DNA from: an uncultured Desulfobacteraceae bacterium
Lineage (GTDB): Bacteria; Desulfobacterota; Desulfobacteria; Desulfobacterales; JALSRD01
Assembly (NCBI GenBank): GCA_964476595.1
Contig: CAYZCL010000154.1
Location: 903 to 64,902, forward strand
DNA: 64,000 bases
Direction of reading: 5' to 3'
Below the pieces are notes generated by a model that saw only the letters and a list, made by a program, of their open reading frames with translations, ran no database searches and was not told the DNA's origin. Made by a program: the position numbers and the translations under genes. The first letter of the stretch is position 1, and each line of letters opens with the position of its first letter. Positions 30,512 through 46,409 of the stretch are shown piece after piece.

Positions 30512-30521
30512 ACTCGTCTGC

Positions 30522-33555: not shown

Positions 33556-34938
33556 TTAATAGGGAAACGCGATTCCCATTTCGAAAAGTTCGTCCTTCAC
33601 ACGTCGGTAAAGGCTCTCGTGTGCATCAGTGGGTAATGCTTTGGCCACGTCGTAGCACTCCTGGTACGTACTGCCCAGGGGCGCCGTGGCGGCCTGGTCC
33701 TCGTACCTGGAGAGCAGTTTGAGGGCGATTTCGTTGGCCTCGGACAGGGTCATACCCTGGCGCGCCACGGCGTGGCCCACCTCGGCGCCCAGGCGCGCCT
33801 CCAGGGGGGTGGCGCGGTTGCGGTGCTTGTTGCGCGTGGATGCCATTTCCCACAGGTGCCAGCCGGTGACGGTGCTCACCAGGGCATGGCAGGCGGTCTC
33901 GTAGAAGAGCATTTCGGTCATGGGGCCGGCATTGGCGAAGCCGTTGGAAGTATAGAGCAGATTGCTGTTGCGCGAAAGGGCCTGGCCGGCCACGGCGATG
34001 GGCCATAGCAGTTCGCGGGTGGTGTTGGAACCGTAGTTGAGGTGGAAGGGGAAGTGCTGGTTGAAGACGGCCCCGTGAACCACCAGGCCCATCAGGCTGT
34101 AGGCCACCAGTGTTACAGCGATACCCTCGGATCCGCCACACCAGCCGCCGTAGATGGGGCCGGTCAGGTGGCCGGTGTAGCAGCCGTACTGAGCGTAGTG
34201 CACGGCGCGGTTGAGGAGCGTATCGGCGGTCTTGAACTCGGTCAGTCCGCCCACCAGGCGCGCGTCGGTGGTGCGCACGCCCCACTCGTTGTTAGACACG
34301 GCGATCTGTCCGCTGTCGTGTTCGGCCGTGCCCACGGCCACCAGGAAAGTCCCCGGTCGCCCCAGCTGTCGCGCCGCCAGGCGCAGGTTGTAGATGTGCT
34401 GGATGCAGCCGTTGATCTCGGTGGGGCCGCCCGAAGAGATCAGCTGCCCCATGGACTCTTCCAGGATGGGCGCGCAGAATCCGTCCAGCAGCGGTTCGCG
34501 CAGATAGGCCAGGCACATCGAGTAGTGCAGGTTTTCGTCGCAGGTGATGTCCGGGCTGAGGATGCACAGCGGCGGCTCGGGGTCTTCCACCTGCCGGTGC
34601 TTCCAGAAAACGGCGTCCTTGCCCTCGCCGACCCAGTAGGCTCCCCTGGCGTGGTAGAGGGCCTCGCGGATCTCGTCGTCGCCGACCATGATCATACGGT
34701 GGCTGTCGGTGTTGTAGACTCCCACCTCGCGGAACAGGTCCCAGCCGGCCTGCCACACGCGGTCGGCCAGATCGGGATCGTCGGGCACCGGCGTCTGCGG
34801 GTCGCAGCGGATTTCGTACTGCTTGATGATTTTTTTCAGGGTAGGTGTGAAACGCCGGGGCAGAAAATCGTCCTCCTCCATGTGGGGTCCGGTGCCGCAG
34901 CGTTCGATCATTTCCCAGAGCTTGTAGACGGTGGTCAT
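33556..34938 (-). CDS. MtmB-family (monomethylamine methyltransferase-like) protein lacking pyrrolysine
   Basis: 460 aa and uninterrupted. By eye it is collinear with Methanosarcina MtmB as I remember it. Examples: AGWDLFREVGVYNTDSHRMI vs AGFEMLLECGIYCTDTHRIV; PIYGGWCGG vs PIFGGYAGG; GSNTTRELL vs GSTNTRETL; and the C-terminus GSTYQECYDV vs GKTFQECYDV. After the shared GRPG motif, the Pyl position is a sense codon (GTG at 34339-34341). Confidence 0.85.
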   Translation of the reverse strand: MTTVYKLWEMIERCGTGPHMEEDDFLPRRFTPTLKKIIKQYEIRCDPQTPVPDDPDLADRVWQAGWDLFREVGVYNTDSHRMIMVGDDEIREALYHARGAYWVGEGKDAVFWKHRQVEDPEPPLCILSPDITCDENLHYSMCLAYLREPLLDGFCAPILEESMGQLISSGGPTEINGCIQHIYNLRLAARQLGRPGTFLVAVGTAEHDSGQIAVSNNEWGVRTTDARLVGGLTEFKTADTLLNRAVHYAQYGCYTGHLTGPIYGGWCGGSEGIAVTLVAYSLMGLVVHGAVFNQHFPFHLNYGSNTTRELLWPIAVAGQALSRNSNLLYTSNGFANAGPMTEMLFYETACHALVSTVTGWHLWEMASTRNKHRNRATPLEARLGAEVGHAVARQGMTLSEANEIALKLLSRYEDQAATAPLGSTYQECYDVAKALPTDAHESLYRRVKDELFEMGIAFPY

Positions 34939-34953
34939 GTTTTCTTTCCTCTA

Positions 34954-35586
34954 TTATTTCAGCAGCGTCGCCATCTGTTCGGGGGCGGCGTTGGCGTCCT
35001 CGCAGTACAGGTCCGCGCCGATCATGTCGGCCCACTCCTGGCTGGCGGGGGCGCCGCCGATCACGACCTTGTACTTGTCGCGCAGGCCCTTGTCCTTCAG
35101 GAACTGGATGATCTCCTTCTGGCGGGGCATGGTGGTGGTCATCAGCGAAGAGGCCCCGATGAAGTCGGCGCCCATTTCCTCTGCCGCCTTGATGAAATCC
35201 AAGGGGTCCACGTCGTAGCCCAGATCACGGACCTCGAAGCCGTTGATCTCCAGCATGAGCTTGACGATGTTCTTGCCGATCTCGTGCAGGTCGCCGCGTA
35301 CCACCCCCAGCACCACCCTGCCCCGGACCTCCGCGTCGCGGCTGCTCTCGAGCATGCGCGGACGGGTGATGTCCACCACCGCCATGAGGGCCTCGCCGGC
35401 CATCATGACCTCGGGCAGGAAGATGTCCAGGTTGGCGAACTGTTCCCCCACACGCTGCATGGTGCGGGTCAGGGTGTCCAGAATGTCCAGGGGGTCGACC
35501 CCTTCGGCCAGCAGTTTGTGGGCCAGTTCCTCGCTCTGTTCCTTCTCTCCGCTCTCCACCAGTTTGTCCAGTTGTTCCAGTGACAT
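34954..35586 (-). CDS. Cobalamin-binding corrinoid protein (MtmC/MtbC/MttC-like, B12-binding_2 plus B12-binding)
   Basis: 210 aa. DxHxxG motif GDLHEIGKNIV, then a Rossmann-like B12 domain (IGASSLMTTTM, KVVIGGAP). It lies 15 nt upstream of the MtmB-like gene on the same strand. Confidence 0.9.
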   Translation of the reverse strand: MSLEQLDKLVESGEKEQSEELAHKLLAEGVDPLDILDTLTRTMQRVGEQFANLDIFLPEVMMAGEALMAVVDITRPRMLESSRDAEVRGRVVLGVVRGDLHEIGKNIVKLMLEINGFEVRDLGYDVDPLDFIKAAEEMGADFIGASSLMTTTMPRQKEIIQFLKDKGLRDKYKVVIGGAPASQEWADMIGADLYCEDANAAPEQMATLLK

Positions 35587-35690
35587 GTCGATCCTCCAGA
35601 TCAGATGATTCCCGCCGCCGGCGCGGCGATGCTGATCGATCAGTAATATATCACAAATATGATGTCAACATATTAAATGATGTATCAGGC

Positions 35691-35719
35691 TTGACAGGTG
35701 CCGGCTCCCCCTTTATGAT
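35691..35719 (+). promoter_or_regulatory. Sigma-70-type promoter for the GntR gene
   Basis: TTGACA (35691-35696), a 17-nt spacer, then TATGAT (35714-35719), about 27 nt upstream of ATG 35746. Confidence 0.5.
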
Positions 35720-35745
35720 GGGTTGCCATCATGCGGAGGGGGGCC

Positions 35746-36378
35746 ATGCAGAAAGGCGAAGTGTACGAACAGCTGCGGTCGAAGATCATCACCAACCGGA
35801 TTCGCCCCGGTGAGATCCTCACCGAGAAGGATCTCATCGCCGAATACGGTATCGGGCGCACACCGCTGCGCGACGTGCTGATGAAGCTTCAGGAGGAGAA
35901 GCTCATCCGCACCATTCCACGCATGGGCTCCATGGTGACACCGCTGGACATGGCCGAGATGCGGGAACTGGTGGAGGTGCGACGTGAACTGGAGGGGTTT
36001 GCCGCCCGACTGGCGGCCGAACGCATCTCGTCGCAACAGCTCGACACCCTGCGCGGCATCCTGCAGGAGGCCACCGAGCAGTTTCGCGACGAGCGCCGGG
36101 TGGACAATATCTCGGACTACTTCGACACGCGCTTTCACCATGTGTTGTACGAGGCGGCTGGCAACGGCAAGCTGGTGGAGATCCTGCAGAAACTGCACGT
36201 CCAGATGCTGCGGCTGTGGTTCTCGCTGGGGTTCAGGACCATTCCCTTCGCCAGCCAGTCCGACAGCCTCTACGCCCTGCTCGAGGCCGTGGCGCAGCGG
36301 GACGGCGCCGCCGCCCGCGTTGCCATGCAGCAGCACATCGACCTCTACGCCGCCCGCCTCAAGGAACGATTTCTCTAG
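35746..36378 (+). CDS. GntR-family transcriptional regulator (FadR/FCD subfamily)
   Basis: Start is ATG 35746 (RBS GGAGGGGGG). The N-terminal wHTH is YEQLRSKIITNRIRPGEILTEKDLIAEYGIGRTPLRDVLMKLQEEKLI. The C-terminal helical FCD-like domain includes FHHVLYEAAGN. Confidence 0.85.
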   Translation: MQKGEVYEQLRSKIITNRIRPGEILTEKDLIAEYGIGRTPLRDVLMKLQEEKLIRTIPRMGSMVTPLDMAEMRELVEVRRELEGFAARLAAERISSQQLDTLRGILQEATEQFRDERRVDNISDYFDTRFHHVLYEAAGNGKLVEILQKLHVQMLRLWFSLGFRTIPFASQSDSLYALLEAVAQRDGAAARVAMQQHIDLYAARLKERFL

Positions 36379-36418
36379 CGTTCGCGCGCCTCTCGTGTCC
36401 GCCGGGTCGGGAAAAGCG

Positions 36419-37129
36419 CTACTTTCTGCGTTTCGACTGCCGGAACTGGCAGTTTTTCAGGCCGCACGCGTCGCATTTGGCGGCGGGCGGGCGTTCGCGG
36501 GCGGGGCCCAGGGGGGCCAGGAACGAAATGGATTTTACCGGGGTCATCACCAGGCTGTCGTTGAGGGTGACGCCGATGGCGCCGGCGTCTGTCAGGGTGA
36601 AGATGAGGCGCTGGGCTTCGACCGGGAAGCCGTTGAGCCCCGGCCCGAGGCGACAGCCGCAGAAGAGGCCCCGTTTCGCCGCCCGCCGGGACAGTTCCCC
36701 GTGAAGAATTTCGCCCAGCCGGTCCAGCAGGGCGACCCCCACGGCGTCCATGAGCGTGGCGGTGTAGAGGTCCCCGCCGCGGGTCAGCTCCCGGCTGTGC
36801 GCTTCCAGGCCCGGCCCCAGGGTGCCCACCACAGCGGCCAGGTAGACGTTTTGCGGCCCGCACAGCGCCGCCCCGCCGGTCAGGACGGCGCCATCGGCCA
36901 GCACGATGTCGCCGCCGGGTATCGTTTCGACAATGGGGTGCAGGCCTACGGCGGCCGCCGGCCGGATCAGCCGCAGACCCGCTGCGGCGGCCGCGGCGAT
37001 GCGCTCCCGGGTGCCGGGGTCGGGCACGTACTGCGCTCCACCGAAGTAGCGTGCCACCTGGTCGGGTCGGACCGCCAGATCGGCGGGATTATAGCGCACG
37101 ATGTCGCGTTGGACGGACGGTGGTTTCAT
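36419..37129 (-). CDS. Methionine-synthase activation-domain-like (Met_synt_B12-like) protein
   Basis: Start set at ATG 37129 (MKPPSVQRDIVRY...). The pattern VARYFG..., LMDAVGVALLDRL, RLGPGLNGFPVEAQRLIFTLTDAGAIGVTLNDSLVMTPVKSISFLAPLG matches the small stand-alone MetH activation-region proteins found beside corrinoid methyltransferase genes. C-terminal motif CDACGLKNC. Confidence 0.65.
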   Translation of the reverse strand: MKPPSVQRDIVRYNPADLAVRPDQVARYFGGAQYVPDPGTRERIAAAAAAGLRLIRPAAAVGLHPIVETIPGGDIVLADGAVLTGGAALCGPQNVYLAAVVGTLGPGLEAHSRELTRGGDLYTATLMDAVGVALLDRLGEILHGELSRRAAKRGLFCGCRLGPGLNGFPVEAQRLIFTLTDAGAIGVTLNDSLVMTPVKSISFLAPLGPARERPPAAKCDACGLKNCQFRQSKRRK

Positions 37130-37438
37130 GACCGGAAATTCCTGCGGTGGTGTGAGTGTCGTATGAGGTCCGGCAGACTGCGAACCGGCCCCCTCCGTGT
37201 CCCGCGGCCGGGCGTCCAGCGTCCGCCCCACGGGTGCAGGCCGAATATACGCCCCCGGACGTGTTACGGCAAATGATTTTGTAATTGCCCCTGGGGACGA
37301 TAAAGGTTATTGAGGCTGTCGGAGCGCAGCCGAAGAGCGCCTTCGGCGGAGACGACGGGAGAGGGGGTGGTATGCTTTCCTGTACGACACGACTCCCGCA
37401 GTGTGGTTTTATTCTGACACCGGATTGCTGAATCGCTC

Positions 37439-37918
37439 ATGAAAGTCATTTTCGTGGAACTGGACCGTTGCCTGGCCTGCCGGAGCTGCGAGCGGGTGTG
37501 CTCCTTCCAGGAGACCGGCGGGTTCAAACGGGAAAATTCGAACATCTGGGTGCACGTGGACCTGGACCGGCGGTCTATTTTCACCATGACCTGTCTGCAG
37601 TGCGAAACCGCCATGTGCCTCGAAATCTGCCCGGTCGAAGCCATCCGGCGAGACCCCCGCACCCATGCCGTGGTGGTGGACGAAGCCCGCTGCGTGGGTT
37701 GCCGCATGTGTGTGCCGGCCTGCCCCTTCGGCAATATCCACTTCGAGAACCGGCGCCACGTGGCCGTCAAGTGCGACCTGTGCGGCGGCGACCCCCAGTG
37801 TGTCAGGAACTGCATGGCCGGTGCGCTGCACTACGCCGACATCAACGAACTGGCCGAAATCAAGCGCCGGCGCATGGACGGCCTGCTGGTGCAGCGCGAG
37901 GAGGGCCGTTCCCGGTGA
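37439..37918 (+). CDS. Multi-cluster [4Fe-4S] ferredoxin (HycB/DmsB-like)
   Basis: 159 aa. Cys motifs CLACRSCERVC, CLQCETAMCLEICP, CVGCRMCVPACP and CDLCGG..QCVRNC. Confidence 0.85.
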   Translation: MKVIFVELDRCLACRSCERVCSFQETGGFKRENSNIWVHVDLDRRSIFTMTCLQCETAMCLEICPVEAIRRDPRTHAVVVDEARCVGCRMCVPACPFGNIHFENRRHVAVKCDLCGGDPQCVRNCMAGALHYADINELAEIKRRRMDGLLVQREEGRSR

Positions 37919-39984
37919 ATACCCGCCCGATCATCGAAAACGGCGTGATCCCCACCTTGTGCCGCATGTGCGACACGCGCTGCGCCATCGATGTGCATCT
38001 CAAGGATGGAGTCATCTCCGACATTACACCCTTTCAGGGGCACCAGGTCAACCACGGCCGCATGTGCCCGCGGGCCACGGCGGCCATCGACCAGTTCTAC
38101 CACCCCCGGCGCATCACGACGCCGCTCAAACGCAAACCCGACGGCAGTTTCGAAAAGATCTCCCGCGAACAGGCCCTGGACGAGATCGCGGACAGGATGG
38201 CGGCCCTGAAGGAGGCCTACGGGGCCCGGAGCGTGGGGTTCTGGAAAGGGGAGGGGGTGGGCTTCGCCCAGCAGGAGCAGTACGTGCGGCGTTTCGCCCA
38301 CGCCTTCGGTTCGCCCAATTATTTCTCCAATGACTCGGCCTGTTACAACGGGCGCTACCTGGGACACAGTTTGGTTTTCGGTTTCTGGAACCCTTTTCCG
38401 CGCTTCACCGAGGCCGGGCTCATCCTGCTTTTCGGCACCAACCCGCCCATGTGCCACCCGCCCTTCATGCGTGAGTTCGCCGACGCCCGCGCCCGCGGCG
38501 CCAAGCTGGTGGTCATCGATCCGCGCCTCAACCCGGTGGCCTGCTATGCCGACATCTTCGCCCAGCCCTATCCCGGCACCGACGGCGCCTTGGGCTGGGG
38601 CCTGATCCGCTATCTCATAGAGCGCCGCAGCTACGACCACGAGTTGGTGGAGCGCTTCTCGGTGGGTTTCGGACGCCTGGCCCGTTACGCCCGTCGTTTC
38701 ACGCCGGAGGTCGTCGAGCAGGAGACCGGCATCTACAAGGATGTGCTGGTGCAGATCGCCGAGATGATCATCAAGTACAGCCCGCATGTCAGCATCTTCA
38801 CCGGCGCCGGCCTGGAACACCACGAAAACGGGGTCAACAACATCCGCACCCTGGCATCCCTGGGCTGCCTGTGCGGGGCGCTGGACCGCGGCTGCGGCTT
38901 CTTCTGGCCCGATCCGTTCCCCGGCCGCCGGCTGGAGCTTTACGAGGAGCTGCCCCTGGAGGACCAGGGTCCCATCGGGGCGAACCGCTTTCCGGTGCTT
39001 TACGAGAAGCGCAGGGAGTGCCACAGCATGACGGCCATGGACTACATGCTGGGCGACGGCGACTACCGGCTCCGGGGGCTGGTCATGACGGCCGCCAACC
39101 CCGCCGTGACCAACCCCAACACGGCCAAGGTGGAAAGGGCCCTGTCCGGCCTGGATCTGCTGGTGGTCAACGATTTTTTCATGACCCCCACGGCACGCCT
39201 GGCCCACTACATCCTGCCGGCGGCCACCTTCCTGGAACGCTCCGAACTGCATTGCCACATCAAGTACCAGTTGGTCACCTTGGCCCGCAGGGTACTGGAG
39301 GTGCCCGGCATCCGGGACGAATACATGCTCTGGCACGACCTGGCCCACCGGCTGGGATTCGGACGGCAGTACTTCCCGTGGGAGAGCGAAGAGGAGGTCA
39401 CCCGCTGGATCCTGGAGCCCACCGGCATTTCCCTGGAAGACCTGGCGGCGCACCCCGAGGGGATCGTCTACAAGCCGGTGCGCTACCTCAAGTACAGGCA
39501 GCGACCGCTGCCCACCCCCTCGGGCAAGATCGAGTTCGCCTCGGCCTACCTCGCCGACAAGGGGCTGAGCGAACTCCCCGAGTACACTCCACCTTACCAC
39601 CGCCGGCGGGCGGGCGGTGAATACCCCTTCGTGCTCACCACGGGTGCGCGCATGTCGCTGTTCTACCACTCCCGCCACCAGAACATCCCGCGCTTTCGCA
39701 CCGTGCACCCGGCCGCCGTGGTCGAGATGCACCCGGACGACGCCGCCGAGCTGGGCGTGCGCAACGGCCAGCGCGTGCGCATCGTCTCTCGGGCCGGCAG
39801 CCTGGAGATCGCCGTGTGCATCGTGCATCCTTCCGAGCTGCGCCGGGGCGTGGTCGAGGTCTACCACGGGTGGGAAAAATGGCGCGTCAACCGGGTGACC
39901 TGCGACGACGTCAACGATCCCATCAGCGGGTTCCCGCTGCTCAAGGGGGTTCCCGTGCGCATCGAACCCATACAGGACCCGTGA
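37915..39984 (+). CDS. Second cytoplasmic molybdopterin (MopB-family) oxidoreductase, substrate unknown
   Basis: The tracked ORF (37468-39984) overlaps the ferredoxin gene out of frame. The real start is most likely GTG 37915, overlapping the ferredoxin TGA (GTGA). N-terminal Fe-S motif CRMCDTRCAIDV. No Tat signal. Candidate ligand region SPNYFSNDSACYNG. C-terminal beta-barrel-like region GQRVRIVSRAGSLEIAV. Confidence 0.85.
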   Translation: MNTRPIIENGVIPTLCRMCDTRCAIDVHLKDGVISDITPFQGHQVNHGRMCPRATAAIDQFYHPRRITTPLKRKPDGSFEKISREQALDEIADRMAALKEAYGARSVGFWKGEGVGFAQQEQYVRRFAHAFGSPNYFSNDSACYNGRYLGHSLVFGFWNPFPRFTEAGLILLFGTNPPMCHPPFMREFADARARGAKLVVIDPRLNPVACYADIFAQPYPGTDGALGWGLIRYLIERRSYDHELVERFSVGFGRLARYARRFTPEVVEQETGIYKDVLVQIAEMIIKYSPHVSIFTGAGLEHHENGVNNIRTLASLGCLCGALDRGCGFFWPDPFPGRRLELYEELPLEDQGPIGANRFPVLYEKRRECHSMTAMDYMLGDGDYRLRGLVMTAANPAVTNPNTAKVERALSGLDLLVVNDFFMTPTARLAHYILPAATFLERSELHCHIKYQLVTLARRVLEVPGIRDEYMLWHDLAHRLGFGRQYFPWESEEEVTRWILEPTGISLEDLAAHPEGIVYKPVRYLKYRQRPLPTPSGKIEFASAYLADKGLSELPEYTPPYHRRRAGGEYPFVLTTGARMSLFYHSRHQNIPRFRTVHPAAVVEMHPDDAAELGVRNGQRVRIVSRAGSLEIAVCIVHPSELRRGVVEVYHGWEKWRVNRVTCDDVNDPISGFPLLKGVPVRIEPIQDP

Positions 39985-40075
39985 TCCACGCGCCGCAGGG
40001 CGTTTTCACGATGCTTTCCCCGACATGCATGCCGGCCGCTGCTTGCGGTCCCACCGGCGCCGTCTCCGCACCGGC

Positions 40076-40104
40076 TTGACAGAAAGCGCCGATACCCATA
40101 CAAT
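40076..40104 (+). promoter_or_regulatory. Sigma-70-type promoter upstream of the ABC transporter operon
   Basis: TTGACA (40076-40081), a 17-nt spacer, then TACAAT (40099-40104), about 135 nt upstream of ATG 40240. Confidence 0.5.
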
Positions 40105-40239
40105 CGGCACATCCTTCTTCGGGTGGCGGTGATCCCCAGCGGATGACGGGCCGCGTATGCCTGCCATGCCGCCGCCGGGGGGATTTTTTCTCTGTGCCGG
40201 CCACGACCGGGAGAACACCACCAGGATCTTTTATCGCTC

Positions 40240-41064
40240 ATGAGTGAAGGAACCGTCGCCCATCGCCGCAGGCCCGCCTGGCGCACCTTGATCCGGTCGC
40301 CGTGGATGGACGTTCTGCAGTACGCCTTGGTGCTGGCCGGCGTGGCCTGGTTCTTTGCGCGCGGCACCACCCGCATGGGTTACAACTGGCAGTGGTACCA
40401 GGTGCCGCAGTACATCTTCCGGGTGGTCGACGGGCATTTCCAGGCCGGCCCCCTGTGGGACGGCCTGATAGTGACCCTGCGCATATCGGGGATCAGCCTC
40501 CTGCTGGCCTTCCTCATCGGGCTGGTCACCGCCCTGGCGCGGCTGTCCCACTCTTTCGTGGCGCAGACCTGTGCCCGGCTCTACCTGGAGCTGATCCGCA
40601 ACACGCCCCTGCTGATCCAGATCTTCTTCATCTACTTCGTGCTGGGACCGGTGCTGGGCCTGAGCCGCTTTCCCTCGGCGGTGCTGGCCCTGAGCCTCTT
40701 CGAGGGCGCCTACGCCTCGGAGATCCTGCGGGCCGGCATCGTTTCCATTCACCGTGGACAGTGGGAGGCGGCCTACAGCCTGGGACTCGGCACGTTCGAT
40801 ATCTACCGCGACATCATCATGCCCCAGGCCATCCGGCGCATCCTGCCGCCGCTGACCAGCCAGGCCATTTCGCTGGTCAAGGACTCGGCCCTGGTGAGCA
40901 CCATCGCCATCTACGACCTGACCATGCAGGCCCAGGCCGTGATATCGGAAACCTTCCTGACTTTCGAGCTGTGGTTCACGGTGGCCGGTATGTACCTGAT
41001 GGTCACCGTGACGCTGTCGCTGGTCGTCAACATCATGGAAAACCGGCTGCGGGTGGTCGGTTGA
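40240..41064 (+). CDS. Polar amino-acid-type ABC transporter permease (HisM/GlnP family)
   Basis: 274 aa, multi-TM. EAA-loop region [32 protein letters not shown]. Confidence 0.85.
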
Positions 41065-41089
41065 ACGAAACGCATTTTTCAGGAGCATC

Positions 41090-41842
<753 letters not shown>

Positions 41843-41903
41843 GGGCCGCCGGCGGGTTCGATTTATCTGTTTCATTTCACCTATCAGCGAAAGGAGGCGT
41901 GGT

Positions 41904-42734
41904 ATGAAGAAGAGGCGAACCTGGCCGGTAATCCTGGCGGTGGTGTTGAGTCTGAGCCTGAGCGGAGCGGCCCTGGCCGGCAAGCTGCAGCAGCAGCTGG
42001 TCCAGGAGAGCACCATCGAACACATCATGAAGCGCGGTGTCATGCGGGTGGGCATGGACACCTTCGTGCCCTGGGCCATGAAGGACAAGACCGGCAAGTT
42101 CATCGGCTTCGAGATCGACGTCGCCACCCAGCTGGCCAAGGACATGGGCGTCAAGGTGGAGTTCGTGCCCACCAAGTGGGCCGGGATCATCCCGGCGCTG
42201 CTGACCGGAAAGTTCGACGTCATCATCGGCGGCATGGGCATCCGGCCCAAGCGCGCGCTGAAGGTCAATTTCACGCTGCCCTACGACTACTCGGGTATGT
42301 CCATCGTGGCCAGCAAGAAACTGGCCGCCGGCTTCCACTCGCTGGCGGACTTCAACAAGCCCGACGTGCAGATCGCCTGCAAGCTGGGCACCACGGCCGC
42401 CATGGCCGCCAAGAAGTTCATTCCCAAGGCCAAGCTGCGCCTCTTCGACGACGAGACCCAGGCTTACCAGGAACTGCGCAACGGCAACGTGCACGCCGTG
42501 GTGGGATCGGCGCCGCGGCCGGCCTTCGAGGCCGTCACCTACCCGGAAACGCTCTTCATGCCGCTGAAGGAAAATTTCACCAAGGAGCCCATCGCATTCG
42601 CCCTGCGCAAGGGCGACTTCGACACGCTGACCTTTTTCAACAGCTGGATCATCCTCAAGACCGACACCGGCTGGCTCAAGGAGCGCCACCACTACTGGTT
42701 CGAGACCCGCGACTGGGCCGGCAAACTGGAGTAG
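41904..42734 (+). CDS. Family-3 periplasmic solute-binding protein
   Basis: Signal peptide MKKRRTWPVILAVVLSLSLSGAALA. Body: MRVGMDTFVPWAMKDKTGKFIGFEIDVATQLAKDMG...WAGIIPALLTGKFDVIIGGM. Confidence 0.85.
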   Translation: MKKRRTWPVILAVVLSLSLSGAALAGKLQQQLVQESTIEHIMKRGVMRVGMDTFVPWAMKDKTGKFIGFEIDVATQLAKDMGVKVEFVPTKWAGIIPALLTGKFDVIIGGMGIRPKRALKVNFTLPYDYSGMSIVASKKLAAGFHSLADFNKPDVQIACKLGTTAAMAAKKFIPKAKLRLFDDETQAYQELRNGNVHAVVGSAPRPAFEAVTYPETLFMPLKENFTKEPIAFALRKGDFDTLTFFNSWIILKTDTGWLKERHHYWFETRDWAGKLE

Positions 42735-42806
42735 CCGCCCCGATGCCCGCGGGCCGGCGTCCCCTCGCCGGCCCACGGGCCGTTTCATGGAACGCCCCGG
42801 GAAGAA

Positions 42807-43697
42807 TTGCGCGTGTATCGTAAGAAGACCCGCATAACGGCCCTGGACCTGGTGCTCATGGCGCTCATCCTGGCCGTGCTGAGCTACATCGGCTACCGCC
42901 TGACGGTGAAGCTCAACTACAAGTGGAACTGGCCGGCCATCCCGCGCTACCTGCTCTACTACAGCAGCGAGCACCACGCCTGGATGTCGGGCATCCTGCT
43001 CGAGGGCCTGTACACCACCATCCGCCTGAGCGTCTGGGCCACCCTGATCGCGGCGCTGCTGGGCCTGGTCACCGGCATCATGCGCGCCACCGGCGGCCTG
43101 TTCAGCCGCATGATGGCCCGCACTTACGTGGAGCTGATCCGCAACGTGCCCCCGCTGGTGCTGGTCTTCATCTTCTACTTCTTCTTCAGCGCCCAGATCA
43201 TGCCCCTGCTGGGCGTGGAGGATTTCATCCGCTCGCGCTCCCCGGCCGCCCAGCGCTGGCTGGCGGTGTTTTTCGCCACGCCGGATGTCTTCAGCGCCTT
43301 TCTCTCGGGCACCATCACGGTGGCCGTTTTCCAAGGGGCCTACATTACCGAGATCGTGCGTGCCGGGATCCAGTCCATCGAGCGGGGACAGTGGGAGGCG
43401 GCTTACGCTCTGGGCCTTTCGTGGCCCCGGCAGATGTGGGATGTGGTGCTGCCCCAGGCCCTGCGGCGCATCCTGCCGGCCTTGGCCAACGAGTTCATCA
43501 ACACCATCAAGTACTCCGCCATCGTTTCCATCATCTCCATCCAGGAACTCACCTTCCAGGGCATGCAGATCATGGCCAGCACCCAGATGACCATCGAAGT
43601 GTGGCTGGTGGTCACCGCCATGTACCTGGTGCTCTGCCTGGTGCTGTCGGTGGGGGTGCAGTGGCTGGAGCAGCGCCTGGCCCGCAGCGATGCCTGA
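42807..43697 (+). CDS. Second polar amino-acid-type ABC transporter permease
   Basis: 296 aa. EAA-loop region [31 protein letters not shown]. The start codon is uncertain (TTG 42807 or GTG 42813). Confidence 0.85.
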   Translation: MRVYRKKTRITALDLVLMALILAVLSYIGYRLTVKLNYKWNWPAIPRYLLYYSSEHHAWMSGILLEGLYTTIRLSVWATLIAALLGLVTGIMRATGGLFSRMMARTYVELIRNVPPLVLVFIFYFFFSAQIMPLLGVEDFIRSRSPAAQRWLAVFFATPDVFSAFLSGTITVAVFQGAYITEIVRAGIQSIERGQWEAAYALGLSWPRQMWDVVLPQALRRILPALANEFINTIKYSAIVSIISIQELTFQGMQIMASTQMTIEVWLVVTAMYLVLCLVLSVGVQWLEQRLARSDA

Positions 43698-43706
43698 CGG
43701 GGCCGC

Positions 43707-44951
43707 ATGGCGGCGGCCATGGCACTGCTGATCCGGGCCCGCCGGCTGCTGGAGGTGCGGCGGGGCGAGATGCTGCCCGACCCGCTGGTGGCCGTCGCCG
43801 ACGGCCGCGTCCGCGAGATCCTCCCCGGTGCGCCGGCGCCGGACCCGTCGTCGGGGCGCCGGGTGCTGACGTTTCCCGACGGCTGTGTTCTTCCCGGCCT
43901 GGTCAACACCCACCTGCACCTATGCGCCCCCTCGCGGGGAATTCCCTTTCATCGGCCGCAGTCCGACCATGCGGCCCTGCGGTGGGCCATGCGCAACGCC
44001 CGGACCGAGCTGCTAAGCGGCGTGACCACCGCCCGCGACTGCGGCGACCAGAACGGCGTGCTCTTCCGGCTGCGCCGGGTCGCGGCCGCCGGTGTGTGCC
44101 GCGCCCCCCGCCTGCTGCTGTGCGGTCCGCCGCTGACGCGTCCCGGAGGCCATGCCCACTTCCTGGGCGGCGCGGTCAGGGGTCCCGAAGGCGTGGCGCA
44201 GGCCGTGCGGTCGCACCTTGCGGCCGGCGCCGATTTCATCAAGCTGATCGTCACCGGCGGCGGCACGCCGGGCACCGACCCGGCCCGCGCCTACTACGAC
44301 GCCGGCGAGATCGCCGCCGCCGTCCGGACCGCCCACGACTGCGGCAGACCCGTGGCCGCCCACTGCCGGGGCACCCCCGGCATCCGCCTGGCCACCGCCG
44401 CCGGGGTGGACCACATCGAGCACGCCTGTTTCGAACAGCCCGACGGCCGGCTGCGTTTCGACGCCCGGGTGGCCGCACAGATGGCCGCCGCCGGCGTGGC
44501 CGTCACCCCCACCATCCAGCTCTACCGCGACATGCTCGCCGCCCTGGAAAAAAAGCGCCTTTCGACCGGCCTGGACGCGGCCGAGCGCCGGCTGCTGGCC
44601 CGCCTGCCCGACACCATCTCGCGGAAATTTGCCGCCCTGCGCGAGTTTCGCCGGTTCGGCATAACCTGTTTGGCCGGCAACGACGCCGGCCTGCCGCATA
44701 CCGGTTTCGGCCGCCTGTGGCGGGAACTCGAGGCCATGACGGCCGGCGGCCTGACGCCCCTGGAAGCCATCCGCTCAGCCACCCTGACCGCCGCCCGCGC
44801 CCTGCGCCTCGCCGGGGAAGCCGGATCCCTGGCGCCAGGCATGCCGGCCGACCTGATCGTGGTGGATGGCGACCCCCTGAAAGACATTCGCGCCCTGTCG
44901 CGCGTGCGCCTGGTCCTGCAGGCCGGCCGGGTGGTCACCGAACAGCCATGA
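43707..44951 (+). CDS. Metal-dependent amidohydrolase-superfamily protein (COG1228-like), substrate unknown
   Basis: 414 aa. HxH site PGLVNTHLHL, later His contexts (VAAHCRG, VDHIEHA) and an Asp context (LAGNDAG). The start lies 9 nt after the permease stop. Confidence 0.75.
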   Translation: MAAAMALLIRARRLLEVRRGEMLPDPLVAVADGRVREILPGAPAPDPSSGRRVLTFPDGCVLPGLVNTHLHLCAPSRGIPFHRPQSDHAALRWAMRNARTELLSGVTTARDCGDQNGVLFRLRRVAAAGVCRAPRLLLCGPPLTRPGGHAHFLGGAVRGPEGVAQAVRSHLAAGADFIKLIVTGGGTPGTDPARAYYDAGEIAAAVRTAHDCGRPVAAHCRGTPGIRLATAAGVDHIEHACFEQPDGRLRFDARVAAQMAAAGVAVTPTIQLYRDMLAALEKKRLSTGLDAAERRLLARLPDTISRKFAALREFRRFGITCLAGNDAGLPHTGFGRLWRELEAMTAGGLTPLEAIRSATLTAARALRLAGEAGSLAPGMPADLIVVDGDPLKDIRALSRVRLVLQAGRVVTEQP

Positions 44952-45206
44952 CGGGCCTCTCCGAACCCCTTCCGAAACGCATCGCCCCCTCGTGTCCCGT
45001 GTCATCCACGGGCCCGCTGCCCGGCGCATGGCGATGGCAGGCGGCGGTCGGTATGCCTGCGGTTCCGCGGGGCCGCCCGTACCCCAACGGGACCCGGGCG
45101 GAAGCCGTGGCGCCCTGCCGAAGACCGGGGTTGCGTGCGGCCGACCCGCCCAAGGGCCAAAAGGAACTTGTTCCTGCCGGTCTTTCGGTGCTATGACCTG
45201 CCGAGA

Positions 45207-46409
45207 ATGACCGGCCCCGAAAAGAAAATATTCGCCACCCTGTTTTTCTCCATCTTCGCCGCCGTGACCGGCGTGGGCATCGTGGTGCCCCTGCTGCCGG
45301 TCTACGCCCACAGCCTGGGGGCCACGGGGCTGTACATCGGCATGATCTTCGGCGCCTTTTCCCTGTCGCGCACCGTGTTCCTGCCCTATTTCGGCCGCGT
45401 CTCCGACCGCCGTGGCCGCAAGCCCTATATCGTGAGCGGCCTGCTGGCCTACTCGGTGGTGTCGGTGGCCTTCATCTTTTCCAAAAGCGTAGAGAGCCTG
45501 ATCGTCATCCGCCTGTTTCACGGGGTGGCCTCGGCCATGATGATGCCGGTCATCCAGGCCTACATCGGCGACATCACCCCCGCCGGCAAAGAGGGGTTTT
45601 CCATGGGCGTGTTCAACATGTCCATGTTCCTGGGGCTCAGCCTGGGGCCGCTCATCGGCGGCGTCATCAAGGACCGCTTCAGCCTGGAGGCGGCCTTCAT
45701 CTGCATGGGGTCGCTGTCGCTGGTGGGATTTCTGCTGAGCATCATCTTCCTGCCGCCCACACGGTCGGAACAGGTGCTGGCCCGCGTCCAGACGCCCATG
45801 AAACTCAAGGCCCTGATCGCGGATCCCTTCATTTCGGGCCTCTTTTCCTTCCGTTTCGCCTACACGGCCTGCATCGGCATCATCTGGGGGTTCGTACCCG
45901 TTTACGCCGACGCCCGCTTCGGCCTGTCCAGCGCGCTCATCGGCGGGCTGGTGACCACCGGGGTCTTCATCAGCGGGTTGATCCACGTGCCCATGGGCTA
46001 CCTGGCCGACCGTTTCAGCCGGGTGAAGCTGGTGGTCGCCGGGGGGCTGCTGGTGGCGGTTTCTGTGTGGGCCTTCGGCTGGGCCAACGGCTTCTACGGC
46101 ATGCTGGCGGCCTCGATTTTTTTCGGCCTGGGCGGCGGTGTCTCGAACCCGGCCCTGATGGCCATGAGCGTGCACAAGGGCAGCCAGGCGGCCGCCATGG
46201 GGTCGGTGATGGCCTACCTCACCATGGCCCACAGCCTGGGCATGCTGGCCGGCTCCCTGCTGGGCGGCATGATGATGGATCTCTTCCAACTGCGCCAAGC
46301 CTTTCTGCTGGGCATGCTCATCATGCTGGCCGGGGTGGGGGCCTTCTACCTGCTCACACGGCTGCGGCCCGCCGTGGTGGCCACCGTGGCCGGAGGACCG
46401 CAGGCCTGA
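45207..46409 (+). CDS. MFS transporter
   Basis: Start is ATG 45207 (MTGPEKKIFATLFF...). About 12 TM helices. MFS loop motif GRVSDRRGRKP between TM2 and TM3. Confidence 0.85.
   Translation: MTGPEKKIFATLFFSIFAAVTGVGIVVPLLPVYAHSLGATGLYIGMIFGAFSLSRTVFLPYFGRVSDRRGRKPYIVSGLLAYSVVSVAFIFSKSVESLIVIRLFHGVASAMMMPVIQAYIGDITPAGKEGFSMGVFNMSMFLGLSLGPLIGGVIKDRFSLEAAFICMGSLSLVGFLLSIIFLPPTRSEQVLARVQTPMKLKALIADPFISGLFSFRFAYTACIGIIWGFVPVYADARFGLSSALIGGLVTTGVFISGLIHVPMGYLADRFSRVKLVVAGGLLVAVSVWAFGWANGFYGMLAASIFFGLGGGVSNPALMAMSVHKGSQAAAMGSVMAYLTMAHSLGMLAGSLLGGMMMDLFQLRQAFLLGMLIMLAGVGAFYLLTRLRPAVVATVAGGPQA

What the first reader, a model, noticed from the sequence alone, without database searches (positions are those of the whole stretch)
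33556..46409. Possible 13-kb catabolic neighbourhood linking the MtmB-like system to a ferredoxin/Mo-enzyme pair, an amino-acid-type ABC importer, an amidohydrolase and an MFS transporter
Immediately beside the methyltransferase genes lies a GTGA-coupled ferredoxin plus cytoplasmic MopB oxidoreductase (37439-39984). Behind a good sigma-70 promoter (40076-40104) comes a four-gene polar-amino-acid-type ABC importer. A COG1228-type amidohydrolase starts 9 nt after the last permease gene, and an MFS transporter follows. Uptake, C-N hydrolysis, corrinoid-dependent demethylation and a redox step could together describe a pathway for an N-methylated amino-acid-like or cyclic amide compound. This functional linkage is speculative. 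The genes sit on both strands and in at least four transcription units.
Basis: inference. Interest (0 to 1): 0.6.

Follow-up and report, generated by a model that had tools for sequence, protein, structure and literature searches.

The report
Methylated-histidine catabolic gene island
The genes are real and keep turning up together, in shuffled order, in many anaerobic bacteria, usually next to histidine-breakdown genes. This points to an undescribed pathway that imports a methylated histidine-type compound, removes its methyl group with a vitamin-B12 protein and feeds the rest into histidine catabolism.

Summary
All gene calls, the GTGA overlap, the 9-nt gap and the promoter-like site are confirmed. 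The speculative functional link is largely borne out by comparative genomics.

- **MtmB anchor:** in 33 MtmB-like loci with full 10-kb flanks, the same ABC importer occurs in 19, the MopB in 15 and both in 11, in many orders and orientations.
- **MopB anchor:** orthologs (at least 51% identity) sit beside hutH, the importer or MtmB/corrinoid. About 60 paralog loci show none of these.
- **SBP anchor:** its homologs lead to the same Fd-MopB-ABC-amidohydrolase block. One run reads ABC-amidohydrolase-corrinoid-MtmB-HutH-HutU-FTCD in a single direction.

The MFS gene is never conserved and is probably unrelated. An SBP ortholog (PDB 9e2b, 68% identical) was crystallised with L-tryptophan. The amidohydrolase resembles enzymes that release a C-terminal amino acid from N-acyl or dipeptide substrates.

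Best reading: a modular island for an N-methylated histidine-derived compound. The exact substrate and the role of the MopB are unresolved. The MopB is not a formate dehydrogenase. It belongs to the acetylene-hydratase-like clade that also holds ergothioneine synthase. I found no description of this linkage in the literature I could search.

The parts
33556..34938 (-). Non-pyrrolysine MtmB-family methyltransferase (proposed MT1: substrate:corrinoid methyltransferase)
   Evidence: PF05369, E=3e-86. The 460-aa ORF is uninterrupted, and Val aligns with Pyl202 of M. barkeri MtmB. More than 100 homologs are 72-100% identical and nearly all are 460 aa long.
34954..35586 (-). Cognate corrinoid (B12-binding) protein, 15 nt upstream of the MtmB-like gene in the same operon
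   Evidence: PF02310 and PF02607. TIGR02370 scores 200 bits. It carries the DLHEIG B12-binding motif. It is adjacent to MtmB-like in 75 of 80 loci.
35731..36378 (+). GntR/FCD-family regulator, divergent from the corrinoid-MtmB operon (a public gene call starts at 35746)
   Evidence: PF00392 and PF07729. It holds the same position in 13 loci of the closest subclade. A promoter-like site lies at 35691-35719.
36419..37231 (-). Stand-alone MetH-activation-domain-like protein (public aa, roughly 36419-37129). Proposed reactivation factor for the corrinoid protein.
   Evidence: PF02965 scores 25.1 bits, at the cut-off. It lies next to MtmB-like in 21 genome loci at 34-74% identity.
37439..37918 (+). 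Poly-[4Fe-4S] ferredoxin, electron-transfer partner of MopB
   Evidence: Fer4_11 and other Fer4 models. It overlaps the MopB start in GTGA. It is paired with MopB orthologs in most loci.
37915..39984 (+). Cytoplasmic Mo/W-bisPGD (MopB) enzyme of an uncharacterised subfamily linked to hut genes
   Evidence: PF04879, PF00384 and PF01568. The C16/C19/C23/C51 cluster motif and the C143 ligand are invariant in orthologs. Cys-Tyr replaces the Sec/Cys-His of FDH. Orthologs sit beside hutH, the ABC importer or MtmB, and paralogs never do.
40076..40104 (+). Sigma-70-like promoter consensus upstream of the ABC operon
   Evidence: TTGACA-17-TACAAT, 11 of 12 matches. Sequence read. Function not tested.
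40240..41064 (+). ABC permease 1 (polar-amino-acid type)
   Evidence: PF00528 and the TIGR01726 domain. Orthologs at 55-92% identity in about 31 loci.
41090..41842 (+). ABC ATPase
   Evidence: PF00005, GlnQ-like at 324 bits. Orthologs at 75-93% identity in about 30 loci.
41904..42734 (+). Periplasmic solute-binding protein (SBP_bac_3, cyclohexadienyl-dehydratase/AncCDT lineage)
   Evidence: PF00497. PDB 9e2b scores E=4e-118 at 68% identity and is titled 'solute binding protein from Desulfonauticus sp. bound to L-tryptophan'.
42807..43697 (+). ABC permease 2
   Evidence: PF00528. Conserved together with the other three ABC genes.
43707..44951 (+). Binuclear-metal amidohydrolase of the Xaa-Arg / Xaa-Pro / ochratoxinase-type carboxypeptidase group (COG1228). 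Last gene of the ABC operon.
   Evidence: PF01979. Closest solved relatives are Cc2672 Arg carboxypeptidase (3mtw) and 3be7. It is not HutI: TIGR01224 gives only E=3e-7 over a partial stretch. Ligands H69/H71, K179, H219, H239 and D326 were read directly. It directly follows permease 2 in L003, L005, L011, L014, L075, L084, L164, L165 and L166. In L001 it is cut by the locus end.
46457..47371 (-). NMT1/THI5-like protein without an obvious signal peptide. Possible accessory component.
   Evidence: PF09084. It recurs next to the MtmB or ABC modules in about 12 loci. Sequence read. Its role is unknown.

Best explanation
Window 33556-44951, possibly with the NMT1-like gene at 46457-47371, is a modular catabolic island for an N-methylated, histidine-derived compound.

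Proposed flow:
1. The polar-amino-acid-type ABC importer takes up an L-amino-acid-like solute with a heteroaromatic side chain.
2. The amidohydrolase, last gene of that operon, frees the amino acid from an N-acyl or dipeptide form. Candidates are anserine/balenine-type beta-alanyl-methylhistidine or N-acetyl-(methyl)histidine.
3. The non-Pyl MtmB-like enzyme transfers the N-methyl group to Co(I) of its corrinoid partner, leaving histidine.
4. An MT2 encoded elsewhere passes the methyl group on. In relatives this is a UroD/MtaA-CmuA-type gene.
5. The MetH-activation-domain-like protein repairs oxidised corrinoid.
6. Histidine goes through HutH/HutU/HutI/formiminotransferase. These are encoded next to the island in relatives but not in this window.
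7. The Fd-MopB pair carries out an extra redox step on the same class of compound. Most plausibly this occurs at the imidazole or imidazolone ring, either removing or adding an S or O substituent at C2, with electrons exchanged through the ferredoxin.

Shown: gene identities, co-conservation and the link to hut genes. Inferred: the substrate, the order of steps and the MopB chemistry. The MFS gene is not part of the island.
For: **Forward test (80 MtmB-anchored genome loci).**
- The corrinoid gene is present in 75. The four ABC genes occur in about 30, MopB in 26, Fd in 22, MetH-activation-like in 21, NMT1 in 12 and the amidohydrolase in 7. Order and strand vary.
- Among the 33 loci with full flanks, ABC occurs in 19, MopB in 15 and both in 11.

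**Reverse test (MopB anchor).**
- Orthologs with at least 51% identity lie beside hutH, ABC or MtmB/corrinoid.
- About 60 paralog loci (38% identity or less) have none of these, which serves as a built-in negative control.

**SBP anchor.**
- L164 holds the same seven-gene block, Fd-MopB-ABC-amidohydrolase.
- L166 reads ABC-amidohydrolase-corrinoid-MtmB-HutH-HutU-FTCD-FTCD_C in one direction.
- L165 has ABC-amidohydrolase beside hutU-hutH-hutI-FTCD.
- L162 shows the cluster in cultured Desulfococcus.

**Histidine link.**
- The lyase passes the hutH equivalog cut-off (668 bits against 539). HutU passes its cut-off (437 against 375).
- HutI scores 479 bits and FTCD is present.
- L081 carries hutU-FTCD-amidohydrolase-FTCD_C-hutH-Fd-MopB as one co-directional run. 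hutH and Fd overlap at 9514-9517.
- The adjacent regulator is HutC-like.
- In Spirochaetes a hisC-type aminotransferase, corrinoid, MtmB, IOR and an ADP-forming acyl-CoA synthetase form one operon.

**Other support.**
- The SBP ortholog 9e2b binds a free heteroaromatic L-amino acid.
- The amidohydrolase's closest solved relatives release C-terminal amino acids from N-acyl or dipeptide substrates.
- The only characterised non-Pyl MtmB, MtqB, shows that the fold can demethylate cationic N-methyl donors without pyrrolysine (PMC13044021).
Against: - The window itself holds no hut genes, no MT2 and no MttB. The pathway is therefore reconstructed from relatives.
- The modules can be separated. L053 and L164 lie 1.15 Mb apart in one genome. 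L165 has no MtmB or MopB within 10 kb.
- The crystallised SBP ortholog holds L-tryptophan, not histidine or a dipeptide.
- No known step of histidine or methylhistidine catabolism needs a Mo/W enzyme, so MopB has no assigned reaction.
- The amidohydrolase is conserved only in the subclade closest to the window (7 of 80 loci).
- No substrate was tested. MtmB-like could act on an alpha-N-methyl or quaternary group rather than a ring N-methyl group.
- No shared GntR operator was found between the transcription units.
Confidence: 0.55

Rival explanations
1. Ergothioneine/hercynine or another thio-histidine route. [quoted passage not shown] It would strip sulfur from the imidazole C2 and release H2S, using electrons from ferredoxin. 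MttB-family and MtmB-like methyltransferases would then remove the alpha-N-methyl groups stepwise, until histidine enters the Hut pathway. For ovothiol, a single ring N-methyl group would be removed.
For: - MES-type fusions (P0367: MopB plus Aminotran_5) align end to end with the window MopB at 30% identity and 284 bits. This exceeds the scores for solved acetylene hydratase or FdhF.
- MES acts on the imidazole ring of trimethylhistidine, and its sulfur transfer is reversible (PMC9516567).
- MttB-family genes flank 22 of the 33 full loci, often in several copies.
- A second MtmB-like family co-occurs with them (L018, L020, L085, L131).
- An OpuAC-type binding protein sits in the hut-MopB locus L088.
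Against: - MES is only one of many families in this clade, ranking about 127th of 150 representatives.
- The Cys-Tyr/Phe motif is common in the clade, present in 57 of 131 sequences, so there is no specific signal.
- The window has no MttB.
- The SBP is of the amino-acid type, not the betaine type.
- HutH carries the ASG tripeptide that forms the MIO cofactor, so it needs a free primary amine. That would require three demethylations with no known non-Pyl enzyme for tertiary or secondary amines.
Confidence: 0.15
2. The modules are independent. A histidine or aromatic amino-acid uptake/peptidase unit, an unrelated Mo enzyme and a methylamine-type methyltransferase merely travel together in a mobile nitrogen-compound island, without sharing a substrate.
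For: - Modules occur apart in some genomes (L053/L164, L165).
- Gene order is highly fluid.
- The neighbourhood abuts other N-catabolic genes, namely the pyrimidine-degradation-like set at 18-26 kb.
- The SBP ortholog binds an ordinary amino acid.
Against: - Tight co-directional runs mix the modules. Examples are L166 (ABC-amidohydrolase-corrinoid-MtmB-HutH-HutU), L081 (hutH-Fd-MopB with overlapping stop and start), L018/L020 (MtmB-MopB-corrinoid-MtmB2-MttB-ABC) and L034 (aminotransferase-corrinoid-MtmB-IOR).
- The association holds across phyla and from three independent anchors.
- Paralog loci lack it.
Confidence: 0.15
3. The substrate is a methylated tryptophan or other aromatic amino-acid derivative, such as N-methyltryptophan or hypaphorine. 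The importer is an aromatic amino-acid system.
For: - PDB 9e2b holds L-tryptophan.
- Spirochaete operons pair MtmB-like with the indolepyruvate:ferredoxin oxidoreductase alpha subunit (569 bits), an aromatic-type aminotransferase and an acyl-CoA synthetase.
Against: - In Desulfobacterota, the window's own lineage, the flanking catabolic genes are unambiguous Hut genes: HutH, HutU, HutI, FTCD and a HutC-like regulator.
- MtmB-like proteins are 72-83% identical across both contexts, which argues for one substrate.
- The bound tryptophan may have been picked up from the expression host.
Confidence: 0.08
4. A creatinine or N-methylhydantoin-type ring is opened by the amidohydrolase to give sarcosine, which the MtmB-like enzyme then demethylates.
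For: - Sarcosine is the closest analogue of monomethylamine.
- Hydantoinase_A and CN_hydrolase genes lie near the block in L164.
- Hydantoin racemase, a hydantoinase-like gene and a carbamoyltransferase lie near a MopB ortholog in L087.
Against: - This idea does not explain the pervasive hut, aminotransferase and IOR linkage.
- The amidohydrolase's relatives are carboxypeptidase-like, not creatininase or cytosine-deaminase types.
- The SBP ortholog binds a large aromatic amino acid.
Confidence: 0.05

Closest known systems
MtqB/MtqC of Methanococcoides methylutens (tetramethylammonium/choline:corrinoid methyltransferase; PMC13044021, 2026)
   Same: Both are MtmB-fold proteins without pyrrolysine, encoded next to a cognate corrinoid protein. 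MtqB shows that the fold can use a cationic N-methyl donor without Pyl.
   Different: MtqB comes from an archaeal methanogen and uses a CoM-dependent MT2. It has no link to an amino-acid ABC importer, an amidohydrolase, a MopB or hut genes. I did not have the MtqB sequence, so identity to it was not measured. The substrate here is probably a histidine derivative, not a simple quaternary amine.
Pyl-dependent MtmB/MtmC monomethylamine methyltransferase (PDB 1l2q)
   Same: Same Pfam family (PF05369). The window protein aligns over its full length at 176 bits. It is also paired with a corrinoid protein.
   Different: There is no in-frame UAG, and Val occupies the Pyl202 position. The host is a bacterial sulfate reducer. 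A different substrate is implied.
MtgB/MtgC/MtgA-type non-Pyl MttB systems (glycine betaine, proline betaine, carnitine) of Desulfitobacterium and Eubacterium
   Same: The logic matches: MT1, a corrinoid protein, MT2 and an activator, with methyl groups feeding C1 metabolism in an anaerobe. MttB-family genes often flank the relatives of this island.
   Different: The MT1 fold differs (MtmB rather than MttB). The activator is a MetH-activation-domain-like protein rather than RamA (COG3894). The MT2 in relatives is of the UroD/MtaA-CmuA type. The island is coupled to hut genes and a Mo enzyme.
Metallopterin-dependent ergothioneine synthase (MES) of Caldithrix abyssi (PMC9516567)
   Same: Both are cytoplasmic MopB modules with an N-terminal Fe4S4 motif and a Cys metal ligand, in the acetylene-hydratase-like clade. 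MES is, to my knowledge, the only MopB enzyme known to act on a histidine-derived imidazole ring. The alignment is 30% identical from end to end.
   Different: The window MopB has no fused cysteine desulfurase and no EgtD-type methyltransferase neighbour. It pairs with a ferredoxin and sits in catabolic (hut) rather than biosynthetic contexts. Many uncharacterised families are closer to it than MES.
Canonical Hut pathway operons (hutH-hutU-hutI-FTCD with HutC)
   Same: In relatives, the Fd-MopB, ABC-amidohydrolase and MtmB modules are embedded in such operons or adjacent to them (L081, L088, L165, L166).
   Different: The window contains none of the hut genes. The extra modules have no counterpart in described hut operons.
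Cc2672 / Sgx9260-type amidohydrolases (Xaa-Arg/Lys and Xaa-Pro carboxypeptidases, PDB 3mtw, 3be7, 2qs8)
   Same: These are the best solved relatives (E about 1e-40). The HxH, Lys, His, His and Asp ligands of the binuclear metal site are shared.
   Different: Scores are below every NCBIfam cut-off (NF051886: 209 bits against 500). Substrate specificity is unknown. Unlike those enzymes, this one is encoded as the last gene of an ABC importer operon.

Membership tests
MtmB family (PF05369), Pyl-dependent monomethylamine methyltransferase | MtmB fold or sequence family | tested here: met
   PF05369 scores 290 bits over residues 7-455. PDB 1l2q scores 176 bits over the full length.
MtmB family (PF05369), Pyl-dependent monomethylamine methyltransferase | In-frame UAG-encoded pyrrolysine at the active site | tested here: not met
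   The 460-aa ORF is uninterrupted. The Pyl position (X202 in 1l2q) aligns with Val in FLVAVGT. No NCBIfam MtmB model is matched.
MtmB family (PF05369), Pyl-dependent monomethylamine methyltransferase | Adjacent cognate corrinoid protein | tested here: met
   Corrinoid protein at 34954-35586, 15 nt upstream. It is adjacent in 75 of 80 loci.
Three-component corrinoid methyltransferase system (MT1 + corrinoid protein + MT2 + activator) | MT2 (methyl-corrinoid:acceptor methyltransferase) encoded with the system | tested here: not met
   The 64-kb window has no UroD-type homolog. A UroD/MtaA-CmuA-type gene follows MtmB-like in about 29 relatives.
Three-component corrinoid methyltransferase system (MT1 + corrinoid protein + MT2 + activator) | Reductive activator | tested here: inconclusive
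   No RamA-type gene was seen. A MetH-activation-domain-like protein (PF02965, 25.1 bits at the cut-off) is conserved beside MtmB-like. Its function is untested.
MtqB (non-Pyl MtmB for tetramethylammonium/choline) | Demonstrated methyl transfer from tetramethylammonium or choline, and sequence orthology to ACT9XH_RS04775 | not testable with these tools
Only the shared non-Pyl MtmB character is established.
Polar amino acid ABC importer (PAAT type) | SBP_bac_3 binding protein, two HEQRo-type permeases and a GlnQ-like ATPase in one operon | tested here: met
   PF00497, two PF00528 proteins with the TIGR01726 domain, and PF00005. All specific equivalog cut-offs (cystine, glutamine, ectoine, arginine, histidine) are missed, so the substrate is not assigned.
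MopB / DMSO-reductase superfamily | N-terminal Fe4S4 Cys motif, bis-PGD-binding domains, and a protein ligand to Mo or W | tested here: met
   PF04879, PF00384 and PF01568. C16, C19, C23, C51 and C143 are invariant in 11 orthologs. C143 aligns with Sec/Cys of FDH and with Cys of polysulfide reductase.
Formate dehydrogenase (FdhF/FdhA) | Sec/Cys-His dyad at the metal site, and passing the TIGR01591 cut-off | tested here: not met
   Cys is followed by Tyr, or Phe in orthologs, not His. TIGR01591 scores 307 bits against a cut-off of 666.
Metallopterin-dependent ergothioneine synthase (MES) | C-terminal fused cysteine desulfurase, and co-encoded histidine N-alpha-methyltransferase (EgtD) | tested here: not met
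   The window MopB is 689 aa with no Aminotran_5 domain. No EgtD-like neighbour is present. Similarity to the MES-type P0367 is 30%.
Imidazolonepropionase (HutI) | Passes the TIGR01224 equivalog cut-off | tested here: not met
   The window amidohydrolase gives E=3e-7 and 29.6 bits against a cut-off of 298, over a partial match. True HutI genes occur separately in L088 (479 bits). L165 carries a separate HutI-like amidohydrolase by Pfam.
Amidohydrolase superfamily, binuclear-metal subtype (COG1228 carboxypeptidase-like) | HxH, carboxylated Lys, His, His and Asp metal ligands | tested here: met
   H69/H71, K179, H219, H239 and D326 were read in the sequence. PF01979 scores 131 bits. The closest structures are 3mtw and 3be7.
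Hut (histidine utilisation) operon | hutH, hutU, hutI and a formimino-group-removing enzyme present | tested here: not met
   None is present in the 64-kb window. They lie next to orthologous modules in L035, L081, L088, L165 and L166.

The most novel reading that the evidence does not exclude
The island would encode an undescribed anaerobic route that harvests methyl groups from histidine-derived natural products. Candidates are ring-N-methylhistidines from anserine/balenine or ovothiol, or alpha-N-methylated and thiolated histidines such as hercynine/ergothioneine.

Two enzymes would be new in function. The most widespread clade of non-pyrrolysine MtmB proteins would be a methylhistidine:corrinoid methyltransferase. 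A new hut-operon-linked Mo/W-bisPGD enzyme with its ferredoxin would perform redox chemistry at C2 of the imidazole or imidazolone ring. This could be reductive removal of sulfur or oxygen, the catabolic mirror of ergothioneine synthase. Alternatively it could be water-dependent hydroxylation leading to a hydantoin branch.
Probability: 0.3. Interest if true: 0.85.

Novelty: new variant of a known kind. Interest (0 to 1): 0.68.

Why it matters
- **Open question.** Non-pyrrolysine MtmB homologs are widespread in marine-sediment Desulfobacterota and Spirochaetota. Only one member, MtqB, has a demonstrated function, reported in 2026. The authors state that the roles of the others remain elusive.
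- **A testable assignment.** This neighbourhood analysis gives the most conserved bacterial clade a concrete hypothesis. These proteins are 72-83% identical across phyla. The hypothesis is demethylation of a histidine-derived compound, coupled to a dedicated importer, a peptidase-like amidohydrolase and the Hut pathway.
- **A new Mo/W enzyme subfamily.** Its orthologs are almost always encoded with hutH. No step of known histidine catabolism needs such an enzyme.
- **Cultured hosts.** Desulfococcus (L162) and Desulfocicer vacuolatum DSM 3385 (L058) carry the cluster, so the question is directly open to experiment.
- **Consequences if confirmed.** It would add a sink for methylated histidines (muscle dipeptides, ovothiol, ergothioneine-type compounds) in anoxic sediments. 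It would also broaden the substrate range of corrinoid methyltransferases.

Tried and rejected
- **MopB as formate dehydrogenase, oxidising formate from formimino or formyl groups.** Rejected. The Cys-His dyad is absent and the score is below the cut-off.
- **Window amidohydrolase as HutI.** Rejected. True HutI genes occur separately in relatives.
- **A specific MES signature (Cys-Tyr).** It is not specific. Cys-Tyr/Phe occurs in 57 of 131 clade members.
- **Shared GntR operator between transcription units.** No convincing common motif or FadR-type site was found.
- **Riboswitch or other RNA element.** Rfam gave no match at E up to 0.1 over 32-48 kb.
- **Literature.** I found no paper linking methylhistidine with corrinoid enzymes. 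I also found none linking HutH with a molybdopterin enzyme, and none citing 9E2B or its Desulfonauticus SBP. The mlp-cluster preprint PMC10418091 is unrelated.
- **Contexts of the nearest MopB paralogs (L098, L101).** They show CoA ligase with a TRAP transporter, or RtcB. These give no hint.
- **ORF 32876-33403 (175 aa).** It has no family match and a low-complexity sequence, so it is probably not a gene.
- **MFS gene as part of the system.** Rejected for lack of any conservation.

Full report
**1. Observation**

- MtmB-like protein at 33556-34938(-): PF05369, 290 bits.
- Corrinoid protein at 34954-35586(-).
- GntR/FCD regulator at 35731-36378(+).
- MetH-activation-domain-like protein at 36419-37231(-).
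- Poly-[4Fe-4S] ferredoxin at 37439-37918(+).
- MopB enzyme at 37915-39984(+).
- Permease 40240-41064, ATPase 41090-41842, SBP_bac_3 41904-42734 and permease 42807-43697.
- Amidohydrolase at 43707-44951.
- MFS transporter at 45135-46409.

The ferredoxin stop and the MopB GTG start overlap as GTGA at 37915-37918. TTGACA-17-TACAAT lies at 40076-40104. A second 11-of-12 site lies before the gntR gene at 35691-35719. The amidohydrolase starts 9 nt after the last permease. The promoters are consensus matches only.

**2. Is the neighbourhood more than chance? MtmB as anchor**

The MtmB-like protein has hundreds of homologs. Nearly all are 460 aa long and 72-83% identical. I scanned one genome per species with an alignment of these homologs. 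This gave 80 loci, mostly Desulfobacterota and Spirochaetota MAGs. I then searched the loci with the window proteins by tblastn.

| Gene | Loci with it (of 80) |
|---|---|
| Corrinoid protein | 75 |
| Four ABC genes | 29-33 |
| MopB | 26 |
| Ferredoxin | 22 |
| MetH-activation-like | 21 |
| GntR/FCD | 13 |
| NMT1-like | 12 |
| Amidohydrolase | 7 |
| MFS, EpmA, and the genes left of MtmB | 0 |

Gene order and orientation differ widely between loci. That pattern is expected of functional rather than inherited linkage.

Among the 33 loci with complete 10-kb flanks, the importer is present in 19, MopB in 15 and both in 11.

**3. Reverse tests: MopB and SBP as anchors**

A metagenome scan with a MopB alignment gave about 20 orthologs (at least 51% identity) and about 60 paralogs (38% identity or less).

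- Ortholog loci with enough flank carry hutH-Fd-MopB, the same ABC importer, and MtmB-like/corrinoid.
- No paralog locus carries any of them. This is a built-in negative control.

Starting from SBP homologs gave four informative contexts.

- L164 has the identical seven-gene block Fd-MopB-Perm-ATPase-SBP-Perm-amidohydrolase. It lies next to an EpmA ortholog, as in the window, but 1.15 Mb from that genome's MtmB locus (L053).
- L165 has ABC-amidohydrolase beside hutU-hutH-hutI-FTCD-FTCD_C.
- L166 reads Perm-ATPase-SBP-Perm-amidohydrolase-corrinoid-MtmB-HutH-HutU-FTCD-FTCD_C in one direction, with Fd-MopB divergent from it.
- L162, from cultured Desulfococcus, has MopB-Fd next to HutC-like-corrinoid-MtmB-UroD-CobW-Perm-SBP-Perm.

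The units are therefore co-conserved, but as separable modules.

**4. What else belongs, from unbiased ORF clustering**

Clustering all ORFs in the loci added further neighbours.

| Added neighbour | Loci |
|---|---|
| MttB-family genes | 35 |
| UroD/MtaA-CmuA-type MT2 | 29 |
| GntR/UTRA regulator, best match HutC | 22 |
| CobW | 13 |
| IclR | 12 |
| Aromatic amino-acid lyase | 10 |
| IOR | 10 |
| ADP-forming acyl-CoA synthetase | 9 |
| Aminotransferase | 9 |
| GltD-like Fe-S flavoprotein | 7 |

- The lyase passes the hutH equivalog cut-off (668 bits against 539). The adjacent 677-aa protein passes the hutU cut-off.
- L088 holds HutI (479 bits), FTCD, HutU, HutH, MopB and an M20 aminoacylase.
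- L081 holds hutU-FTCD-amidohydrolase-FTCD_C-hutH-Fd-MopB as one run. hutH and the ferredoxin gene overlap.
- In Spirochaetes the aminotransferase passes the hisC cut-off. It sits in an operon with corrinoid, MtmB, IOR and the synthetase.

The demethylated product is therefore most likely histidine or a close aromatic analogue.

The window itself has no hut, MT2 or MttB gene.

**5. The individual proteins**

*MtmB-like.* It has no pyrrolysine, and Val aligns with Pyl202. The only characterised non-Pyl MtmB is MtqB, which acts on tetramethylammonium and choline. Its authors note that other non-Pyl MtmB functions remain elusive (PMC13044021).

*SBP.* It belongs to the AncCDT/cyclohexadienyl-dehydratase lineage. 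PDB 9e2b is 68% identical and is titled 'solute binding protein from Desulfonauticus sp. bound to L-tryptophan'. In the printed alignments, the Asp of the TDSP stretch of AncCDT-1 is Ser here. From memory, that Asp binds the alpha-ammonium group in amino-acid binders. The SGMT stretch is GGMG here. This may leave room for an N-substituent, but that is inference.

*Amidohydrolase.* It has a full binuclear-metal ligand set. Its nearest solved relatives free a C-terminal amino acid from dipeptides or N-acyl compounds. These include Cc2672 and 3be7 (Xaa-Arg), Xaa-Pro dipeptidases and ochratoxinase. It is not HutI.

*MopB.*
- It is cytoplasmic and has an Fe4S4 motif and a Cys ligand.
- Cys-Tyr/Phe stands where FDH has Sec/Cys-His, and the protein scores below all NCBIfam cut-offs.
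- It lies in the acetylene-hydratase-like clade.
- An MES-type fusion (P0367) aligns end to end at 30% identity.
- MES transfers sulfur reversibly to C2 of the trimethylhistidine imidazole (PMC9516567).
- Many uncharacterised families are closer, however, and the Cys-Tyr motif is common in the clade.
- A more distant ortholog group (L087, L096; 56-59% identity) has a Pyr_redox_2 flavoprotein directly upstream of Fd-MopB. In L087 hydantoin racemase, a hydantoinase-like gene and a carbamoyltransferase lie nearby.

**6. Best explanation**

The island is modular and serves an N-methylated, histidine-derived compound. The proposed steps are as follows.

1. Uptake by the ABC system.
2. Release of the amino acid by the amidohydrolase.
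3. N-demethylation by MtmB-like and the corrinoid protein, with MT2 elsewhere and MetH-activation-like repair.
4. Histidine degradation by Hut enzymes encoded elsewhere.
5. An extra Fd-MopB redox step, probably at the imidazole or imidazolone ring.

The gene identities, the co-conservation and the hut link are shown. The substrate, the order of steps and the MopB reaction are inferred. Candidate substrates are methylhistidine isomers, anserine/balenine-type dipeptides, ovothiol and hercynine/ergothioneine. I put about 0.55 on the overall model and about 0.7 on the modules acting in one pathway family. I put under 0.2 on any particular MopB chemistry.

**7. Rivals**

- **Ergothioneine/hercynine route with a reverse-MES desulfurase (0.15).** It is favoured by the MES similarity, the many MttB neighbours and a second MtmB-like family. 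It is disfavoured by the amino-acid-type SBP, the absence of MttB in the window and the non-specific similarity.
- **Independent modules in a nitrogen-catabolic island (0.15).** It is favoured by the separability of the modules. It is disfavoured by mixed co-directional operons and by the three-way reciprocal association.
- **Tryptophan-derivative substrate (0.08).** It rests on 9e2b and IOR. It is contradicted by the unambiguous Hut genes in Desulfobacterota.
- **Creatinine or N-methylhydantoin to sarcosine (0.05).** It does not explain the hut linkage.

**8. Comparison with known systems and novelty**

The logic is that of a corrinoid-dependent methyltransferase system such as MtmBC, MtqBC or MtgBCA. 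This island fails the defining Pyl feature of MtmB. It lacks an MT2 in the window. It has a non-RamA activator candidate, and it is coupled to an importer, an amidohydrolase, a hut-linked Mo/W enzyme and histidine catabolism. None of these couplings is described in the papers I could search. I rate it a new variant of a known kind. The MopB subfamily could turn out to be something more novel.

**9. Side observations**

- Relative to its closest relative L001 (95% MtmB identity), the window carries a roughly 6-kb low-GC insertion at 27550-33533. The insertion holds a CHASE2 hybrid kinase and a LysM/FecR protein.
- Beyond the insertion lies a reductive-pyrimidine-catabolism-like set at 18138-26387.
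- No Rfam element and no shared operator were found.

Noticed in passing
window 27550-33533: A roughly 6-kb stretch of low GC content (0.52-0.54, against 0.62-0.69 around it) is absent from the closest relative L001. Synteny with L001 jumps from window 33534 to 27549. The stretch carries a CHASE2 hybrid histidine kinase (27851-30511, -), a LysM/FecR protein (30522-32177, -) and a doubtful 175-aa ORF. It looks like an insertion directly downstream of the MtmB-like gene, at the spot where relatives carry the UroD-type MT2.
   Followed up: partly
window 18138-26387: A reductive-pyrimidine-catabolism-like gene set: M20 peptidase, dihydropyrimidinase-like amidohydrolase, PreA-like (DHO_dh plus 4Fe-4S), PreT/GltD-like, CN_hydrolase and a xanthine/uracil permease. 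It abuts the MtmB module once the insertion is discounted, and it is syntenic in L001. One product of such a pathway, beta-alanine, is also the other half of anserine/carnosine. This may be coincidence.
   Followed up: partly
window 36419-37231 (-): A stand-alone MetH-activation-domain-like protein is conserved beside MtmB-like genes in about 21 loci, often followed by UroD, a GltD-like flavoprotein and CobW. This suggests SAM-dependent reductive reactivation of the corrinoid protein, rather than the usual RamA-type ATP-dependent activator.
   Followed up: partly
window 46457-47371 (-): An NMT1/THI5-like protein without an evident signal peptide recurs next to the MtmB or ABC modules in about 12 loci (for example L005, L011, L063, L075, L081, L084). 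Its function is unknown.
   Followed up: partly
L018 9071-11100, L020 13746-15800, L085 2627-4700, L131 1538-3600, L134 6500-8500 (approximate): A second, divergent MtmB-like family (35-40% identical) with its own corrinoid protein (39-46% identical) occurs in the same neighbourhoods. It is sometimes in one operon with the first MtmB-like gene, MopB, MttB and the ABC importer. This hints at stepwise demethylation, or at isomer-specific enzymes.
   Followed up: no
window 47440-48525 (-) and L164 1396-2316: An EpmA (EF-P lysine aminoacylase) gene neighbours the Fd-MopB-ABC-amidohydrolase block both here and in a distant genome. This suggests that it marks the ancestral chromosomal position of the block.
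   Followed up: no
L034, L025, L048, L060, L066, L078 (Spirochaetota loci): MtmB-like and corrinoid genes are embedded in operons with an IclR regulator, a hisC-type aminotransferase, the indolepyruvate:ferredoxin oxidoreductase alpha subunit and an ADP-forming acyl-CoA synthetase. This would be a fermentative fate for the demethylated amino acid, in place of the Hut pathway.
   Followed up: partly
L087 622-11581 and L096 8234-12055: More distant MopB orthologs (56-59% identical) have a Pyr_redox_2 flavoprotein immediately upstream of Fd-MopB. In L087 AroM, hydantoin racemase, a hydantoinase-like amidohydrolase and an OTCase-like carbamoyltransferase lie nearby. This is a possible hydantoin/imidazolone context for this MopB subfamily.
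   Followed up: partly
window 35691-35719 (+): A second near-consensus sigma-70-like site (TTGACA-17-TATGAT) lies just upstream of the gntR gene. It sits in an AT-rich intergenic region with imperfect palindromes (ATATGATGTCAACATAT) that could be an operator.
   Followed up: partly
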